A stretch of DNA of 64,000 bases from a phage: the NCBI GenBank assembly GCA_021469345.1, contig GCA_021469345.1_3049.1. One strand, 5' to 3'. The position numbers and the translations under genes are program-made. The notes under the pieces are model-generated. The model saw only the letters and a list, made by a program, of their open reading frames with translations. It made no database searches and was not told the origin of the DNA. Shown here in pieces: positions 36,752 to 44,007 of the stretch. The stretch's first letter is position 1. Each line of letters starts with the position of its first letter.

Positions 36752-37095
36752 ATAAAGTCAAATATTCGCTTCCTGAGTCATTTTTAATTTTTGCTGTGGC
36801 GTTGGCTGCAGCTCTTGCGGGTAGTCTTTTTGGATTATTAATTGACTGTCTTATTTTAAACATCGACGGCACAGTAAATATAACAGAAGTTTGGAGTGAA
36901 CTTCACTATACTAAAATTATTTCATTATTTTCATTCTTTGGTACCATGTTATATTTTCATTATGATAATTTTAAAATAAATTGGCAAAGAAAAAAGGATT
37001 ACAAAATACAATTAAAAGAATATAATAGCTACATGTCTTATATTGAAAATGAATCAATGAAAGAGTTTGTGAGTGATTGCAGGAAATTAAAATGA
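36733..37095 (+). CDS. Membrane protein, paralog of the previous gene
   Basis: 120 aa; hydrophobic segments and a similar C-tail (MKEFVSDCRKLK). Confidence 0.5.
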   Translation: MQKPKLNKVKYSLPESFLIFAVALAAALAGSLFGLLIDCLILNIDGTVNITEVWSELHYTKIISLFSFFGTMLYFHYDNFKINWQRKKDYKIQLKEYNSYMSYIENESMKEFVSDCRKLK

Positions 37096-37532
37096 AAACA
37101 TTATCAGCTGGTATTATCTTCATGACAGAAGATAAAGATTTATTTATGGGTCGGGTCACTGGTTCTCGTAAGCCTGGAATGATGGCGCATCGCTGGGATA
37201 TTCCAAAAGGGCGTGTAGAAAGTTCTGATTTGAATGCACTGGAAGCTGCAAAAAGAGAATGCTTAGAAGAGACCGGTTTTAGCAATTATAATCCAGACCT
37301 TCTAGAAGACCTAGGTGTATTTAAATATTCTAGTAATAAAGACTTACAGTTATTTTATTATACGATTCCAGTAGAGCATGAGATGTTTAGAAATTGCCAT
37401 TGCGAGTCTTATTTTGAAAATAAAGATGGCGTTATGATTCCAGAGATGGATGCTTTTGCTCTTATTCCTCGTACTCAGTGGCAATATGTGATTGGCCCTT
37501 CACTTTACCGAATAATGAACAGCCTCTTTTAA
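37077..37532 (+). CDS. nudE: Nudix hydrolase NudE (e.1)
   Basis: Nudix box GRVESSDLNALEAAKRECLEETGF; immediately upstream of e as in T4. Confidence 0.8.
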   Translation: MQEIKMKTLSAGIIFMTEDKDLFMGRVTGSRKPGMMAHRWDIPKGRVESSDLNALEAAKRECLEETGFSNYNPDLLEDLGVFKYSSNKDLQLFYYTIPVEHEMFRNCHCESYFENKDGVMIPEMDAFALIPRTQWQYVIGPSLYRIMNSLF

Positions 37533-38100
<568 letters not shown>

Positions 38101-39422: not shown

Positions 39423-39650
39423 TTGAGCGAATTTTATCCTAAGCAATACAAATTACAAAAAGGCGTATTCAAAGGATGCAGAGTTTTGTGCACGGCTCCT
39501 AATGCACGGCTAATGAATAAAATTCCATATTTTACCATGGAATTTATTGATGGGCCTTTTAAAGGACTAATCACCCAAAGTTTAATGGCATATGATTCTG
39601 AGCCATTTTTAATTAAAGAACAATCTTGGATAAATTTATTTTCTAATTGA
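39423..39650 (+). CDS. Hypothetical protein
   Basis: 75 aa ORF; low information. Confidence 0.4.
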
Positions 39651-39657
39651 GGTTTAT

Positions 39658-40020
39658 ATGAAAGCATATCAAATTCTTGAAGGCACACACAAAGGTACTA
39701 TTTATTTTGAACACGGTATTCAAGCACGAATTATTGTCTCTAAAACCTTTAAAGAGGACTCTTTTGTAGACCCAGAAATTTTCTACGGTTTGCATGCCCG
39801 TGAAATTGAAATTGAGCAACAGCCTACAGTTAAAATTGAAGGTGGTCAACACCTGAACGTTAACGTTCTGCGTCGTGAAACTCTGGAAGATGCAGTTAAG
39901 CATCCGGAAAAATATCCGCAGCTGACCATCCGTGTATCCGGTTATGCAGTTCGCTTTAACTCTCTGACTCCGGAACAGCAGCGCGACGTTATCGCTCGTA
40001 CCTTTACCGAGAGTTTGTAA
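39658..40020 (+). CDS. Autonomous glycyl radical cofactor (GrcA/YfiD-like)
   Basis: C-terminal about 60 aa ([62 protein letters not shown]) carry the RVSGY glycyl-radical signature and match E. coli GrcA as I remember it; N-terminal part unrelated. Confidence 0.85.
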
Positions 40021-40241
40021 TGGCAAAGATAATTATTGAAGGTTCTGAAGATGTGCTAAATGCTTTCGCCGAATGGTTTAGTAATTCAGGCGAACAGCAA
40101 TTTAACGAAGCATGGAACATGGGTGATATTAATGGAATTTATCCTACTACAGAAATTTCTGTTCAGGGATATGGCATTCATGAACCTATTCGTTTAGTTG
40201 AATACGATTTATGTACTGGTGAGGAAGTCAAATATGATTGA
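40020..40241 (+). CDS. Hypothetical small acidic protein
   Basis: 73 aa ORF tightly coupled to the preceding gene. Confidence 0.45.
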   Translation: MAKIIIEGSEDVLNAFAEWFSNSGEQQFNEAWNMGDINGIYPTTEISVQGYGIHEPIRLVEYDLCTGEEVKYD

Positions 40242-40500
40242 AGATATTAAAGGTTATAAGCCACATACCGACGAAAAAATCGGTAAAGTAAATGCTATTA
40301 AAGACGCTGAAGTTCGTTTAGGACTTATCTTTGATGCTTTATACGATGAATTTTGGGAAGCATTTGATAGCTGTGAAGATGATGAACTCGCGAAGAATTA
40401 CGCCGAAAGCCTCGATCAGTTAACTATTGCTAAAACGAAACTCAAAGAAGCCAGTATGTGGGCTTGCCGTGCAGTGTTTCAACCAGAGGAAAAATACTAA
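40234..40500 (+). CDS. Hypothetical small acidic helical protein (vs.4 / Acb2-like position, unverified)
   Basis: About 88 aa from the ATG after SD GAGGAAG; acidic; positional inference only. Confidence 0.45.
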
Positions 40501-40778
40501 TGGCTCAATTAAGCGCAGGGTTTGGTTATGAGTATTATACTGCCCCTCGTCGTGTATCTGTTGCTCCTAAGAAAATTCAAAGTCTTGATGACTTCCAGGA
40601 AGTAGTTCGTAACGCTTTCCAGGACTATGCACGTTATCTTAAAGAAGATTCACAGGACTGTCTCGAAGAAGATGAAATTGCTTACTATGAGCAGCGTCTT
40701 GAACAGCTCAAAAATCTACATGAGGTTCGTGCAGAAGTTTCAAAGTCTATGAATAAATTGATTAGATTTAAAGAATAA
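40500..40778 (+). CDS. Hypothetical protein
   Basis: About 92 aa from [13 protein letters not shown]; TAATG overlap with the upstream gene. Confidence 0.45.
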
Positions 40779-40812
40779 CTGTTTACTTTTCCTCTTGACT
40801 GTGGTATAATTT
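40770..40812 (+). promoter_or_regulatory. Early promoter for regB
   Basis: GTTTAC at 40781, perfect TATAAT at 40805-40810. Confidence 0.6.
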
Positions 40813-40837
40813 TTCTATCAGTTAAGAGGAGAATAAC

Positions 40838-41299
40838 ATGACTATCAATACAGAAGTTTTTATCCGTCGAAATAAGCTTCGTCGTCACTTTGAGTCGGAG
40901 TTTCGTCAAATTAACAATGAGATTCGTGAGGCATCAAAAGCAGCAGGGGTCTCATCGTTTCATCTAAAATATTCTCAACATCTTCTTGATCGCGCAATTC
41001 AACGGGAGATTGATGAGACATACGTTTTTGAATTATTCCATAAAATAAAAGACCATGTTTTAGAAGTTAATGAATTCCTGAGTATGCCTCCGCGTCCTGA
41101 CATTGACGAGGATTTTATTGATGGGGTTGAATATCGTCCTGGACGTTTAGAAATCACAGATGGAAATCTTTGGCTTGGATTTACAGTTTGTAAGCCTAAT
41201 GAGAAGTTCAAAAACCCGTCACTTCAATGCAGGATGGCAATTATCAATAGTCGTCGTTTACCAGGAAAGGCTTCTAAAGCAGTAATTAAAACTCAATGA
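40838..41299 (+). CDS. regB: Endoribonuclease RegB
   Basis: 153 aa as in T4 RegB; basic N-terminus MTINTEVFIRRNKLRRHFESEFRQ; early promoter upstream. Confidence 0.85.
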   Translation: MTINTEVFIRRNKLRRHFESEFRQINNEIREASKAAGVSSFHLKYSQHLLDRAIQREIDETYVFELFHKIKDHVLEVNEFLSMPPRPDIDEDFIDGVEYRPGRLEITDGNLWLGFTVCKPNEKFKNPSLQCRMAIINSRRLPGKASKAVIKTQ

Positions 41300-41306
41300 G
41301 GTAAGC

Positions 41307-41852
41307 ATGAGAAAAGCACTACTCGCTGGTCTATTGGCCATTTCAATGATGGCACATAGCTCCGAGCATACTTTCAGTAATGTCCAACTCGATAACATGC
41401 GTTACGCATATCAATTCGGGGAACAATTTTCTAAGGATGGAAAATATAAAACACATAAAAATATCCACAAGAGCGGATTAGGTCATATAATGGCTGCTAT
41501 TTTATGGCAAGAAAGCTCTGGCGGAGTTAATTTAAAATCTAAACCAAAGCATCACGCTTATGGAATGTTCCAAAATTATTTGCCTACTATGCGAGCAAGA
41601 GTTAAGGAACTTGGTTATAATATGACCGATGCTGAAATAAAAAGAATGTTGAATAAACGATCCAATTCAGCTTCCTGGGCGTACATTGAACTTTCTTATT
41701 GGTTAAATATACATAAGGGCGATATAAGAAAAGCAATATCCTCTTATAATTCGGGATGGAATGTTAAAGCTGGTTCTAAATATGCTTCTGAAGTCCTAGA
41801 AAAGGCTAATTACCTTAAAAATAATAAACTTTTGGAAATAGTAAATGACTAA
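41307..41852 (+). CDS. Secreted protein with signal peptide (vs.1-like)
   Basis: 181 aa; MRKALLAGLLAISMMAHS signal peptide; between regB and vs. Confidence 0.6.
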   Translation: MRKALLAGLLAISMMAHSSEHTFSNVQLDNMRYAYQFGEQFSKDGKYKTHKNIHKSGLGHIMAAILWQESSGGVNLKSKPKHHAYGMFQNYLPTMRARVKELGYNMTDAEIKRMLNKRSNSASWAYIELSYWLNIHKGDIRKAISSYNSGWNVKAGSKYASEVLEKANYLKNNKLLEIVND

Positions 41853-42192
41853 AATTTTGGTTTTATGTATAGGATTAATTTCATTTTCTGCTTCTGCGTC
41901 AGCAGATACATCATATACTGAAATTAGAGAATATGTAAACCGCACTGCGGCAGATTATTGTGGGAAAAATAAAGCATGCCAAGCTGAATTTGCACAGAAA
42001 TTAATATATGCATATAAAGACGGAGAAAGAGATAAATCAAGCAGATACAAAAACGATACATTATTAAAACGATATGCTAAAAAGTGGAATACCTTAGAAT
42101 GTTCAGTTGCGGAGGAGAAAGATAAAGCCGCTTGTCATTCAATGGTTGACCGTTTGGTAGATTCTTATAATCGAGGATTGAGTACTAGATGA
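41845..42192 (+). CDS. vs: Secreted protein, Vs-like (valyl-tRNA synthetase modifier position)
   Basis: 115 aa with signal peptide MTKILVLCIGLISFSASASA; T4 vs is of similar size and location. Confidence 0.55.
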   Translation: MTKILVLCIGLISFSASASADTSYTEIREYVNRTAADYCGKNKACQAEFAQKLIYAYKDGERDKSSRYKNDTLLKRYAKKWNTLECSVAEEKDKAACHSMVDRLVDSYNRGLSTR

Positions 42193-42668
42193 TTGTAAAA
42201 TATATCAAGGGCGATATTGTCGCCCTCTTTCTTGAAGGTAATATTATTGCGCACGGGTGCAATTGTTTTCATACAATGGGCAGTGGTGTAGCTGGTCAAT
42301 TAGCAAGAGCCTATCCCAAAATTTTAGAAATAGATAAAACCACTACCGAGTACGGTTCTCGTGATAAATTAGGCGATATGTCTATTGTTTTTAAACATAA
42401 ACCTAATGGTTTTGGCATATGTTATAACTTGTATACGCAATACGAACCAGGTCCTAATCTTGATTATGGTGCTTTAGTAAACTGCATGATAGAATTAAAT
42501 CTACAGGCAGAAACCCTTTTGTTTAAACCAGTAATTTACATTCCACGCATAGGTTGTGGTATTGCTGGCGGCGATTGGGATAAGGTTTCTAAATTAATCG
42601 ACATGTTTACTCCTGATATTGATTTAATAGTGGTGGATTATGAAAGTACATTACCCACATCCGTTTGA
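42189..42668 (+). CDS. Macro-domain (ADP-ribose binding/processing) protein
   Basis: 159 aa; KGDIVALF...IIAHGCNCFHTMGSGVAGQLA and IYIPRIGCGIAGGDW resemble the macro-domain motifs GDIT...N.AN...GGGV and the distal G-x-G loop. Confidence 0.65.
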   Translation: MIVKYIKGDIVALFLEGNIIAHGCNCFHTMGSGVAGQLARAYPKILEIDKTTTEYGSRDKLGDMSIVFKHKPNGFGICYNLYTQYEPGPNLDYGALVNCMIELNLQAETLLFKPVIYIPRIGCGIAGGDWDKVSKLIDMFTPDIDLIVVDYESTLPTSV

Positions 42669-42852
42669 TCCTAAAAACAAAGTGGAAATTATTCGTCAAT
42701 GGGAACGCATTTGCCGTACTAAATGCCCAATTAATAGTCCACATGATGTAGATAAAGACTACATTGGAACATTCGTTGAATATACCTTTATTGATAAGAA
42801 AGGTCGTAAACAACATGTAGAAGAATATTGCTTAAAGGTTACATGGTTATGA
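42640..42852 (+). CDS. Hypothetical protein
   Basis: 70 aa ORF overlapping its neighbours. Confidence 0.4.
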   Translation: MKVHYPHPFDPKNKVEIIRQWERICRTKCPINSPHDVDKDYIGTFVEYTFIDKKGRKQHVEEYCLKVTWL

Positions 42853-43055
42853 GCCAAACTAGTATTCTTAAAAATGCCCATTGTGAAAAGTGTAAGTGGC
42901 CGGTTGTTTTTGCTTTATGCAACGATGAAATGGCTTGTGATTTCGATTATTGGTGCTATTGTTCTAATAAAGGATGTATCAATCATAAAGGTGAAGGATT
43001 TTATTCGGGATTTTATCCTTATCCAGATTTCGTTAAAGAAGGTAAACCAAAATGA
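42849..43055 (+). CDS. Cys-rich small protein (putative zinc-binding)
   Basis: About 68 aa with CEKC...C...C..C.C..C..H spacing. Confidence 0.45.
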   Translation: MSQTSILKNAHCEKCKWPVVFALCNDEMACDFDYWCYCSNKGCINHKGEGFYSGFYPYPDFVKEGKPK

Positions 43056-43225
43056 ATAGTTTTGAGTTACAATACGAAGTGTTACGTGAGCTTGATAATT
43101 TAATTGAACTCGCTGTTAATAAAGGTTTTGCCATTGGAATCGGTCAAAAAGATACTGGTCATTTAACTATGGAAATATTTAAGCAAAAGCGAATTATTTT
43201 AAAACTCCTGGAAATTAATATATGA
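43052..43225 (+). CDS. Small hypothetical protein
   Basis: 57 aa ORF with ATGA overlaps on both sides. Confidence 0.4.
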   Translation: MNSFELQYEVLRELDNLIELAVNKGFAIGIGQKDTGHLTMEIFKQKRIILKLLEINI

Positions 43226-43407
43226 GTCTGAGTAAAGAACAAAAAGATAAATTGTTTGAGCTTATCCATGAACTTCTAGATGAGCATACAGAAGCAAACA
43301 CCTTTTATGATGAATACGGCCCGTTATCTCCCGAACAGCAGGAAGAATTTGCTGATCGGTTTGATAAGAAAGAAAATGAATTAATAACTTATGTGAATAC
43401 GCTTTAA
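43222..43407 (+). CDS. Small hypothetical acidic protein
   Basis: 61 aa ORF. Confidence 0.4.
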   Translation: MSLSKEQKDKLFELIHELLDEHTEANTFYDEYGPLSPEQQEEFADRFDKKENELITYVNTL

Positions 43408-43416
43408 GAAGGTGAT

Positions 43417-43998
43417 ATGGCGAGTTTAATTTTTACTTATGCAGCAATGAATGCTGGAAAATCTGCTTCTCTTTTGACTGCCGCACATAATTATAAAGAA
43501 CGTGGAATGAGTGTATTAGTTCTTAAACCCGCTATTGATACTCGCGATTCTGTCTGTGAAGTCGTTTCTCGCATTGGAATTAAGCAGGAAGCGAATATTA
43601 TTACAGATGATATGGATATTTTCGAGTTCTATAAATGGGCTGAAGCACAAAAAGATATTCATTGTGTATTTGTAGATGAAGCTCAGTTTTTAAAAACTGA
43701 ACAAGTGCATCAATTGAGCCGAATTGTTGATACATATAATGTTCCTGTTATGGCTTATGGATTAAGGACTGATTTCGCTGGAAAATTATTTGAAGGTTCT
43801 AAAGAACTTTTGGCGATTGCAGATAAACTTATTGAACTAAAGGCAGTTTGTCATTGCGGTAAAAAAGCGATTATGACAGCTCGATTAATGGAAGATGGAA
43901 CACCAGTTAAAGAAGGTAATCAAATCTGTATTGGTGATGAAATTTATGTTTCTTTGTGTAGAAAACATTGGAATGAATTAACTAAAAAGCTCGGTTAG
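43417..43998 (+). CDS. tk: Thymidine kinase
   Basis: 193 aa; P-loop AMNAGKS; C-terminal zinc knuckle CHCGKK...C; matches T4 Tk in length. Confidence 0.92.
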   Translation: MASLIFTYAAMNAGKSASLLTAAHNYKERGMSVLVLKPAIDTRDSVCEVVSRIGIKQEANIITDDMDIFEFYKWAEAQKDIHCVFVDEAQFLKTEQVHQLSRIVDTYNVPVMAYGLRTDFAGKLFEGSKELLAIADKLIELKAVCHCGKKAIMTARLMEDGTPVKEGNQICIGDEIYVSLCRKHWNELTKKLG

Positions 43999-44007
43999 TG
44001 CAAAAGT

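What the first reader, a model, noticed from the sequence alone, without database searches (positions are those of the whole stretch)
42189..42668. Macro-domain protein in the early region between vs and tk
The 159-aa protein has the hallmark macro-domain motifs (GDIV...H.CNC...GSGVAGQLA and a distal G-C-G-I-A-G-G loop), implying binding or hydrolysis of ADP-ribose, O-acetyl-ADP-ribose or ADP-ribosylated targets. In a phage this could reverse host ADP-ribosylation-based defence, degrade ADP-ribose-derived immune signals, or regulate the phage's own ADP-ribosyltransferases.
Basis: partly seen in the sequence, partly recalled or inferred. Interest (0 to 1): 0.55.

Follow-up and report, generated by a model that had tools for sequence, protein, structure and literature searches.

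The report
Phage T4-type macrodomain gene tk.4 (AdfM)
This is the known T4-family gene tk.4, a small ADP-ribose-removing (macrodomain) enzyme that in phage T4 itself was recently shown to protect the phage from the bacterial DarTG2 defence, so the finding is correct but already explained.

Summary

- **Fold:** it passes the Pfam Macro threshold. With an alignment it models as a confident macro fold (pLDDT 94.5). The closest solved structures are TARG1, BT1257, Poa1p and DarG.
- **Identity:** it is gene tk.4. A 2025 preprint showed that T4 tk.4 (renamed adfM) is the single T4 gene needed to resist DarTG2, which ADP-ribosylates thymidines in DNA.
- **Subclass:** the protein is not DarG-like in its active site. 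Gln84 and Ala126 replace the TARG1 Lys/Asp pair, as in Streptomyces SCO6735 and Bacteroides BT1257. SCO6735 is a proven thymidine-ADP-ribose DNA hydrolase.

Two extras:
- The window carries a deeply diverged allele, 58% identical to T4/T2/T6 Tk.4 inside 99-100% identical flanks. This allele has not been tested experimentally.
- A GC-rich, terminator-like hairpin in codons 7-13 is conserved across genera with compensatory synonymous changes.

Verdict: correct, ordinary, already known.

The parts
42189..42668 (+). tk.4 (adfM) coding sequence, 159 aa, single macrodomain
   Evidence: ORF; Pfam Macro; RB3 annotation 'tk.4'; model; fold matches
42189..42192 (+). ATGA overlap of the vs stop codon with the tk.4 start codon (translational coupling inferred)
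   Evidence: vs 41845..42192 and tk.4 42189..42668; sequence ...ACTAGATGATT...
42252..42293 (+). Codons H22-A35: HGCNC...MGSGVA. This is the distal-ribose/first ADP-ribose-binding loop, with invariant H22, G23, N25, C26, G33 and A35
   Evidence: Invariant columns in 62 homologues. H22/N25 align with SCO6735 H24/N27 and with PhiKZ AdfM N23
42426..42440 (+). Codons N80-L-Y-T-Q84. Gln84 sits where DarG Lys80 and TARG1 Lys84 sit
   Evidence: HMMER alignment to TARG1; MAFFT alignment to DarG, TARG1 and PhiKZ AdfM; hhalign to SCO6735 Gln85. N80, Y82 and Q84 are invariant
42543..42578 (+). Codons P119-W130: PRIGCGIAGGDW, the phosphate-binding loop. Ala126 sits at the TARG1 Asp125 position
   Evidence: The SCO6735 loop is RIGCGLAGG (PMC5087735)
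42208..42226 (+). Conserved 8-bp GC-rich hairpin AGGGCGAT-ATT-GTCGCCCT inside codons 7-13, followed by a T-rich run; terminator-like
   Evidence: The same place is annotated 'terminator' in MT682709.1
42227..42676 (+). Divergent allele cassette: about 60% nucleotide identity to T4, inside flanks that are 92-100% identical
   Evidence: Sliding identity; codon analysis; gene-by-gene identity matrix
40782..40810 (+). Best sigma-70-like site upstream (TTTACT-17-TATAAT with TG), just before regB. It is the possible early promoter for the regB-vs.1-vs-tk.4 run of same-strand, tightly packed genes
   Evidence: This is a consensus match only, and promoter-like sites in the region are not more frequent than in shuffles

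Best explanation
The ORF is the tk.4/adfM gene of a T4-like phage. It encodes a stand-alone macrodomain ADP-ribosyl-glycohydrolase made early in infection.

Proposed mechanism:
1. The host toxin DarT2 (of the DarTG2 toxin-antitoxin defence) attaches ADP-ribose to thymidines in single-stranded phage DNA and blocks replication.
2. Tk.4 binds the ADP-ribose in its cleft, formed by loop H22-A35 and the phosphate loop P119-W130.
3. It cleaves the ribose-thymine bond, releasing free ADP-ribose and restoring the base.

The chemistry should follow the lysine-free SCO6735 type. Gln84, held by Asn25, positions the distal ribose, and a water does the work. This differs from the Lys-dependent chemistry of DarG and TARG1.

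What is shown and what is inferred:
- Shown here: the fold, the active-site residues, orthology and synteny.
- Shown by others: the anti-DarTG2 phenotype for the T4 allele, and thymidine-ADP-ribose hydrolysis for SCO6735.
- Inferred: that this 58%-identical allele does the same thing, and that the activity is hydrolysis of DNA adducts.
For: - **Orthology:** the gene holds the same position as T4 tk.4 (vs, then tk.4, then tk.3). It aligns full-length and gap-free to T4 Tk.4 at 58% identity, E 4e-70.
- **Genetics in T4:** tk.4 was the single significant hit in a transposon screen on a DarTG2 host, and a clean knockout sensitised T4 to DarTG2 (10.1101/2025.11.20.689424).
- **Fold:** pLDDT 94.5. 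Foldseek's best matches are TARG1 (E 8e-10), BT1257, Poa1p and the DarG macrodomains, all at probability 1.00.
- **Sequence neighbours:** BT1257 1.9e-10, SCO6735 8.6e-08, Mtb DarG 1.4e-05. The family profile against SCO6735 gives hhalign 98.6%, E 6e-16.
- **Active site:** Gln84 and Ala126 match SCO6735 Gln85/Ala130 and BT1257 Gln82/Ala128 (PMC5087735).
- **Biochemical precedent (PMC9411070):** SCO6735 removes thymidine-linked ADP-ribose from DNA and rescues cells from DarT. Q85A is dead and N27S nearly dead. Their equivalents Q84 and N25, together with H22 and G124, are invariant in 62 homologues.
- **Gene packing:** tk.4 sits in a same-strand run with a 4-nt overlap to vs.
Against: - The window's allele has never been tested. 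T2, T4 and T6 all carry the other allele.
- No in-vitro activity has been reported for any Tk.4. The preprint says only that enzymatic removal 'seems likely'.
- Two lysines that SCO6735 needs for the DNA substrate have no counterpart: K34 aligns with Ser32, and K89 lies in a 5-residue loop that Tk.4 lacks.
- The catalytic Lys of DarG is absent.
- The family occurs in thousands of phages of many hosts. A bacterial member sits alone, with no DarT gene within 5 kb on either side. Other substrates are therefore possible.
Confidence: 0.7

Rival explanations
1. The protein mainly processes small soluble ADP-ribose derivatives. Candidates are ADP-ribose-1''-phosphate (as for yeast Poa1p), O-acetyl-ADP-ribose, or ADP-ribose-based immune signals. 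On this view it does not act on DNA adducts.
For: - Many records call it 'phosphatase' or 'A1pp'.
- Poa1p is among the closest solved relatives.
- Tk.4 shares Poa1p's H-x-C-N-C motif. H22 aligns with Poa1p His23 and T29 with Ser30 (alignment); both residues were chosen for mutant structures (6lfs, 6lft).
- A comparative survey argued that phage macro domains mostly target low-molecular-weight ADP-ribose derivatives (PMC9503650).
- In some Vibrio phages the homologue sits next to ribose-phosphate pyrophosphokinase.
Against: - The 'phosphatase' label comes from a domain name, not from an assay.
- The only phenotype known for a Tk.4 is loss of resistance to a DNA-modifying toxin.
- The closest characterised enzyme with the same Gln/Ala active site works on DNA and protein adducts.
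Confidence: 0.12
2. The protein removes ADP-ribose from proteins or RNA. The targets could be marks laid by other host toxins, or marks made by the phage's own Alt, ModA and ModB transferases.
For: - SCO6735 and TARG1 also hydrolyse Glu/Asp-linked protein ADP-ribose (PMC5087735; PMC9411070).
- T4-type phages encode three ADP-ribosyltransferases (established knowledge; references listed).
Against: - No phenotype links tk.4 to Alt or Mod.
- T-even phages are robustly restricted by CmdTAC, which ADP-ribosylates mRNA (abstract of PMC11618068), although T4, T2 and T6 carry tk.4. Tk.4 therefore does not neutralise that RNA mark.
- This activity could coexist with the DNA activity rather than replace it.
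Confidence: 0.12
3. The protein protects without catalysis, by binding and blocking DarT2 or by shielding modified DNA.
For: Catalytically dead SCO6735 Q85A still inhibits DarT in vitro, more strongly than dead DarG or TARG1 (PMC9411070). Other phage anti-DarT factors such as AdfB act by binding (PMC11481870).
Against: - The whole ADP-ribose pocket, including Q84, N25 and the phosphate loop, is invariant down to about 39% identity. That argues for selection on catalysis.
- There is no DarT-binding C-terminal domain; the 159 residues are macrodomain only.
Confidence: 0.05

Closest known systems
T4 Tk.4 = AdfM (anti-DarT factor macrodomain; bioRxiv 10.1101/2025.11.20.689424)
   Same: Same locus (vs, tk.4, tk.3), same length class and same fold. 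It has the same H-G-C-N-C, N-L-Y-T-Q and P-R-I-G-x-G-I motifs, and aligns full-length at 58% identity.
   Different: It is a deeply diverged allele: synonymous sites are saturated (pS 0.68) and dN is about 0.39. The phosphate loop is GCGIAGGDW here against GAGIGKGNW in T4, and this allele has a 4-residue longer C-terminus. This allele has not been tested.
Streptomyces coelicolor SCO6735 / Bacteroides BT1257 (Gln-type subclass of the ALC1/TARG1-like macrodomains)
   Same: Gln replaces the catalytic Lys and Ala replaces the Asp. The His and Asn of the first loop are conserved, and the phosphate loop is nearly identical (RIGCG[IL]AGG). These are the best sequence matches in the PDB.
   Different: Only 26% identity. 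Tk.4 lacks the 5-residue longer mobile loop carrying Lys89, and has Ser32 where SCO6735 has Lys34. It has Gly23 where SCO6735 has Val25, whose backbone holds the proposed catalytic water. It is encoded by a phage, not by a DNA-damage-inducible chromosomal gene.
DarG antitoxin macrodomain (DarTG2) and PhiKZ gp104 'AdfM' (Cell Rep 2026, PMC13309987)
   Same: Macro fold of the same branch and the same presumed job, undoing DarT2 marks. The catalytic-site Asn is shared: PhiKZ N23 corresponds to N25 here.
   Different: DarG and PhiKZ gp104 keep the F-P-T-K catalytic lysine; Tk.4 has Gln. PhiKZ gp104 matches Mtb DarG at 9e-25. It matches the window protein only at E 0.001 over 23 residues. There is no C-terminal DarT-binding domain and no adjacent darT. 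The NCBIfam DarG score is 27.8 bits against a cut-off of 250. The two proteins named 'AdfM' belong to different macrodomain subclasses.
Human TARG1 (OARD1) and yeast Poa1p
   Same: They are among the top structural matches: TARG1 has TM 0.72-0.81 and Poa1p scores E 7e-09. The H-x-C-N-C motif is shared with Poa1p.
   Different: The TARG1 Lys84/Asp125 dyad is replaced by Gln84/Ala126. Poa1p is longer, with an insertion. From memory only, not checked, it has Ser at the Gln84 position.

Membership tests
Macro domain superfamily (Pfam PF01661) | Profile match above the curated gathering score | tested here: met
   33.1 bits against a cut-off of 22, E 6.2e-08, profile positions 2-117 of 118
Macro domain superfamily (Pfam PF01661) | Three-layer alpha/beta/alpha fold with a central mixed sheet | tested here: met
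   AlphaFold model with pLDDT 94.5 and pTM 0.89, alternating strands and helices. The best 14 Foldseek PDB matches are natural macrodomains at probability 1.00; the rest of the top 50 are macrodomains or engineered hydrolases
Macro domain superfamily (Pfam PF01661) | GxG loop after the second strand, and a glycine-rich phosphate-binding loop | tested here: met
   G31-S-G33 and G122-C-G124-I-A-G127-G128. G33, G122 and G124 are invariant in 62 homologues
T4 Tk.4 / AdfM orthologous group | Position between vs and tk.3 in the early regB-tk cluster | tested here: met
T4 Tk.4 / AdfM orthologous group | Full-length similarity to T4 Tk.4 | tested here: met
   58% identity over 155 residues with no gaps, E 4e-70
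T4 Tk.4 / AdfM orthologous group | Required for plating on DarTG2-expressing hosts | not testable with these tools
   Shown only for the T4 allele. T2, T4 and T6 share that allele
SCO6735/BT1257 Gln-type subclass | Gln at the TARG1 Lys84 / DarG Lys80 position and Ala at the TARG1 Asp125 position | tested here: met
   Gln84 and Ala126. Literature values are SCO6735 Gln85/Ala130 and BT1257 Gln82/Ala128
SCO6735/BT1257 Gln-type subclass | His24 and Asn27 equivalents in the first loop, and Gly128 in the phosphate loop | tested here: met
   H22, N25 and G124, all invariant
SCO6735/BT1257 Gln-type subclass | Extended mobile loop with Lys89, plus Lys34 (the DNA-contacting lysines) | tested here: not met
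   There is a 5-residue gap opposite KTGSK, and Ser32 lies opposite Lys34
SCO6735/BT1257 Gln-type subclass | Hydrolysis of thymidine-linked ADP-ribose on DNA | not testable with these tools
   Needs an enzyme assay
DarG antitoxin (DarTG2) | Catalytic lysine in the P-T-K motif | tested here: not met
   N-L-Y-T-Q84 aligns with N-F-P-T-K of Mtb and Taq DarG
DarG antitoxin (DarTG2) | C-terminal DarT-binding domain and an adjacent darT gene | tested here: not met
   The 159 aa are macrodomain only. The neighbours are vs and tk.3
DarG antitoxin (DarTG2) | NCBIfam equivalog score | tested here: not met
   27.8 bits against a cut-off of 250. The PADLOC DarG model gives 27.7 bits
TARG1 | Lys84/Asp125 catalytic dyad | tested here: not met
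   Gln84 and Ala126
Poa1p-type ADP-ribose-1''-phosphate phosphatase | His23 and Ser30 equivalents | tested here: inconclusive
   H22 is present and Thr29 sits at the Ser30 position (alignment). Whether these residues define phosphatase activity was not established here
MacroD/YmdB O-acetyl-ADP-ribose deacetylase | NCBIfam equivalog score | tested here: not met
   16.7 bits against a cut-off of 291

The most novel reading that the evidence does not exclude
The two deeply diverged tk.4 alleles may be specificity variants kept by an arms race with different DarT2-like or other ADP-ribosylating toxins. One is the T4/Mosigvirus type; the other is the RB3/Dhakavirus type seen here. They are swapped as a gene-sized cassette between phage genera.

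The conserved terminator-like hairpin in codons 7-13 may be a functional element. It would set AdfM dosage or timing, and it may mark the 5' recombination joint.
Probability: 0.15. Interest if true: 0.5.

Novelty: already known. Interest (0 to 1): 0.25.

Why it matters
The finding adds little. tk.4 has been annotated as an A1pp/macro ORF for some two decades, and its anti-DarTG2 role in T4 was reported in 2025.

Three points may be useful to specialists:
- T4-type 'AdfM' belongs to the lysine-free SCO6735 subclass. The PhiKZ protein given the same name belongs to the DarG subclass. The two probably use different chemistry.
- The classical T-even phages carry only one of two ancient alleles, so the allele in this window, found in about 320 sequenced phages, is untested.
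- A conserved hairpin inside the gene's 5' end may regulate it.

Tried and rejected
- **Single-sequence AlphaFold** gave pLDDT 37 and was unusable. It was replaced by the alignment-based model.
- **hhalign of the family profile to PhiKZ gp104** placed the DarG lysine two residues off, at Tyr82, in a low-confidence stretch. I rejected that register because HMMER to TARG1, MAFFT with DarG, TARG1 and PhiKZ and hhalign to SCO6735 all pair Thr83-Gln84 with Thr-Lys or Gly-Gln.
- **MAFFT misplaced the BT1257 Gln loop**. I used the HMMER alignment instead.
- **A promoter of its own for tk.4:** the scan found no more sigma-70-like sites than in shuffles (15 against 18 +/- 4). The 1986 'potential' -35/-10 pair has an 11-nt spacer. 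No promoter is claimed.
- **Rfam** gave only sub-threshold noise.
- **Whole-region RNA fold** was not unusual (z = -1.1); only the local hairpin stands out.
- **Bacterial context:** one homologue (Pelagimonas) has no DarT gene within 5 kb on either side. I did no wider survey.
- **Other literature:** the CmdTAC, AdfB/ICP1, Thoeris II and JACS hydrolase papers contain nothing on Tk.4.
- **Minus-strand ORFs** over the gene (44, 35 and 69 aa) have no support and were dismissed.

Full report
**What is there.** The window is a Tequatrovirus genome segment. Bases 41300-44000 match Shigella phage ESh33, several Escherichia phages and RB3 at 98-99% nucleotide identity. At 42189..42668 on the + strand there is an ATG-initiated ORF of 159 codons. 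Its start overlaps the stop codon of vs in the sequence ATGA. Its last 29 bases overlap the next ORF, tk.3. In RB3 the corresponding CDS is labelled tk.4. In the T4 reference it is 'tk.4, phosphatase; contains A1pp phosphatase motif'.

**Is it a macrodomain?** Yes.
- Pfam Macro (PF01661) matches over 116 of 118 profile positions at 33.1 bits, against a gathering cut-off of 22.
- PHROG 335 matches at 1.6e-71.
- A single-sequence structure prediction failed (pLDDT 37). With an alignment of 62 homologues (A1) the model is confident: pLDDT 94.5, pTM 0.89.
- Foldseek against the PDB returns TARG1 (E 8e-10, TM 0.72-0.81), BT1257, Poa1p and the DarG macrodomains of Thermus aquaticus and M. tuberculosis, all at probability 1.00.

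**What is already known.**
- A 2006 comparison of T4-like genomes already listed tk.4 orthologues as A1pp-domain ORFs (PMC1524935).
- In November 2025 a transposon-sequencing preprint found tk.4 to be the single T4 gene depleted on a DarTG2-expressing host. A clean deletion made T4 sensitive to DarTG2. The authors renamed the gene adfM and proposed, without an assay, that it removes ADP-ribose from DNA (10.1101/2025.11.20.689424).
- Earlier work had shown that T4 lacking adfA and adfN stays DarTG2-resistant, and predicted a further factor (PMC11825919).
- A 2026 paper used the same name, AdfM, for PhiKZ gp104. That protein removes DarT2-made ADP-ribose from an oligonucleotide in vitro (PMC13309987).

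**Which kind of macrodomain?** By sequence the nearest solved proteins are:

| Protein | phmmer E-value |
|---|---|
| BT1257 | 1.9e-10 |
| Poa1p | 1.8e-09 |
| SCO6735 | 8.6e-08 |
| M. tuberculosis DarG | 1.4e-05 |
| TARG1 | 0.009 |

With the family profile the order is BT1257 (3e-20), TARG1, SCO6735, Poa1p, then DarG.

Three independent alignments place the invariant Thr83-Gln84 of Tk.4 opposite Thr-Lys84 of TARG1, Thr-Lys of both DarG macrodomains and of PhiKZ gp104, and Gly-Gln85 of SCO6735. They also place Ala126 opposite TARG1 Asp125. The SCO6735 structure paper reports exactly this replacement pair for SCO6735 (Gln85, Ala130) and BT1257 (Gln82, Ala128). It defined them as a separate subclass with its own mechanism (PMC5087735).

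A later study of SCO6735 (PMC9411070) showed that:
- it cleaves thymidine-linked ADP-ribose from DNA more efficiently than DarG or TARG1, and rescues cells from DarT;
- Q85A is inactive and N27S nearly inactive;
- K34E and K89E impair the DNA substrate, and G128E reduces activity.

In Tk.4 the equivalents are His22, Asn25, Gln84 and Gly124, all invariant in 62 homologues. Lys34 corresponds to Ser32. Lys89 falls in a five-residue loop segment that Tk.4 lacks.

The T4 allele has the same Gln. T4-type AdfM is therefore a Gln-type enzyme. PhiKZ AdfM is a true DarG-type enzyme: it matches Mtb DarG at 9e-25 and has the FPTK motif. It matches the window protein only at E 0.001 over 23 residues. SCO6735 matches the window protein at 5e-14 over the full length.

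The protein fails the DarG membership tests. It has no catalytic Lys, no C-terminal domain and no neighbouring darT, and it scores 27.8 bits against the 250-bit cut-off. Failing those tests does not weaken the claim that it does what DarG's macrodomain does.

**Most likely mechanism.**
1. DarT2 ADP-ribosylates thymidines in single-stranded phage DNA and stalls replication (established; summarised).
2. Tk.4 binds the ADP-ribose and cleaves the ribose-thymine bond by the water-mediated, Gln-positioned route proposed for SCO6735.

Tk.4 lies in the early-region run of same-strand genes regB, vs.1, vs and tk.4, and is probably translationally coupled to vs; early expression is inferred from this position. 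I put this explanation at 0.7.

The main weakness is that the window's allele is untested and that no Tk.4 has been assayed in vitro. The rivals are action on small ADP-ribose derivatives, action on protein or RNA adducts, and non-catalytic inhibition of DarT. They are set out with their evidence in the rival section.

**The allele.** The window protein is only 58% identical to T4 Tk.4, and T2 and T6 carry the T4 type. The nucleotide picture is sharp:
- The window and T4 are 92-100% identical across 39577-42176.
- They are identical through base 38 of tk.4.
- They are about 60% identical from there to about 42676.
- They are 92% identical again in tk.3.

Synonymous sites in the divergent part are saturated (pS 0.68), with dN about 0.39. 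The divergence is old, and the protein is under purifying selection.

Gene-by-gene protein identities:

| Comparison | Flanking genes (regB, vs.1, vs, tk) | tk.4 |
|---|---|---|
| Window vs T4 | 99-100% | 58% |
| T4 vs a Mosigvirus | 68-82% | 85% |
| Window vs two Dhakaviruses | 46-71% | 74-77% |

Two old tk.4 lineages have therefore been exchanged across genera as a gene-sized cassette. In the phage collection about 319 records carry the window type at 90% identity or more, and about 224 carry the T4 type. This mosaicism is typical of T4-like phages. It fits a counter-defence gene but does not prove allele-specific function.

**A conserved hairpin (side observation).** Bases 42208-42226 (codons 7-13, K-G-D-I-V-A-L) form an 8-bp GC-rich stem with a 3-nt loop, followed by a T-rich run. 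The scan flags it as terminator-like on both strands. It is the only element that survives in the centroid fold.
- It is kept in Tequatrovirus, Mosigvirus and Dhakavirus, where the only changes lie in the loop.
- It is kept in more distant viral contigs with compensatory changes. AAG...CTN becomes AAA...TTR, GGC...GCC becomes GGA...TCC, and GAT·GTC becomes GAC-GTC or GAT-ATC.
- Random synonymous recoding of the same peptide with local codon usage reaches -10 kcal/mol in only 0.28% of 5000 trials; the observed value is -12.6.
- One GenBank record annotates a terminator there (MT682709.1).
- Relatives whose peptide differs (for example KGDIVKL) lack it.
- No Rfam family matches.

Its function is unknown. 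An attenuator at the vs/tk.4 boundary is my guess. The T4/window identity break begins exactly at its 3' end.

**Verdict.** Interest is low. The residual value lies in the subclass assignment, the untested allele and the hairpin.

Noticed in passing
window 42208-42226: An 8-bp GC-rich hairpin followed by a T-rich run lies inside codons 7-13 of tk.4. It is conserved across three genera and in more distant contigs, with compensatory synonymous changes. Random synonymous recoding reaches comparable stability in 0.28% of trials. One GenBank record annotates the spot as a terminator.
   Followed up: partly
window 42227-42676: This is a gene-precise allele replacement: about 60% nucleotide identity to T4 inside 92-100% identical flanks. 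The window allele is closer to Dhakavirus and the T4 allele closer to Mosigvirus than any flanking gene is.
   Followed up: yes
window 42828-43407: Downstream of tk.3 the small-ORF content differs from T4. There are two extra small ORFs: a 75-aa Cys-rich one at 42828..43055 and a 57-aa one at 43052..43225. T4 tk.1 has no counterpart. T2 and T6 carry both sets.
   Followed up: no
window 37077-37532: A nudE-like Nudix hydrolase ORF lies about 4.7 kb upstream, next to the lysozyme gene e (37569..38063). The T6 record notes NudE as active on ADP-ribose, so it could dispose of the ADP-ribose that Tk.4 releases.
   Followed up: no
window 42246-42263: A second, 7-bp terminator-like hairpin (ATTGCGCACGGGTGCAAT followed by TGTTTTC) lies inside tk.4. 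The stem is disrupted in the T4 sequence, so it is probably a chance feature.
   Followed up: partly
window 41845-42192 (vs): The gene immediately upstream and start/stop-overlapped with tk.4 is vs. The preprint that characterised tk.4 also reported vs as the most depleted T4 gene in minimal medium.
   Followed up: no
Phage records H51, H64, H65: In some Vibrio phages the Tk.4 homologue sits next to ribose-phosphate pyrophosphokinase. In a Microbacterium phage the matching region is annotated as an ADP-ribosyltransferase. These hint at other contexts for the family.
   Followed up: no
Literature: The name AdfM is used for two macrodomains of different subclasses. T4 Tk.4 is Gln-type and SCO6735-like. 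PhiKZ gp104 is Lys-type and DarG-like.
   Followed up: yes
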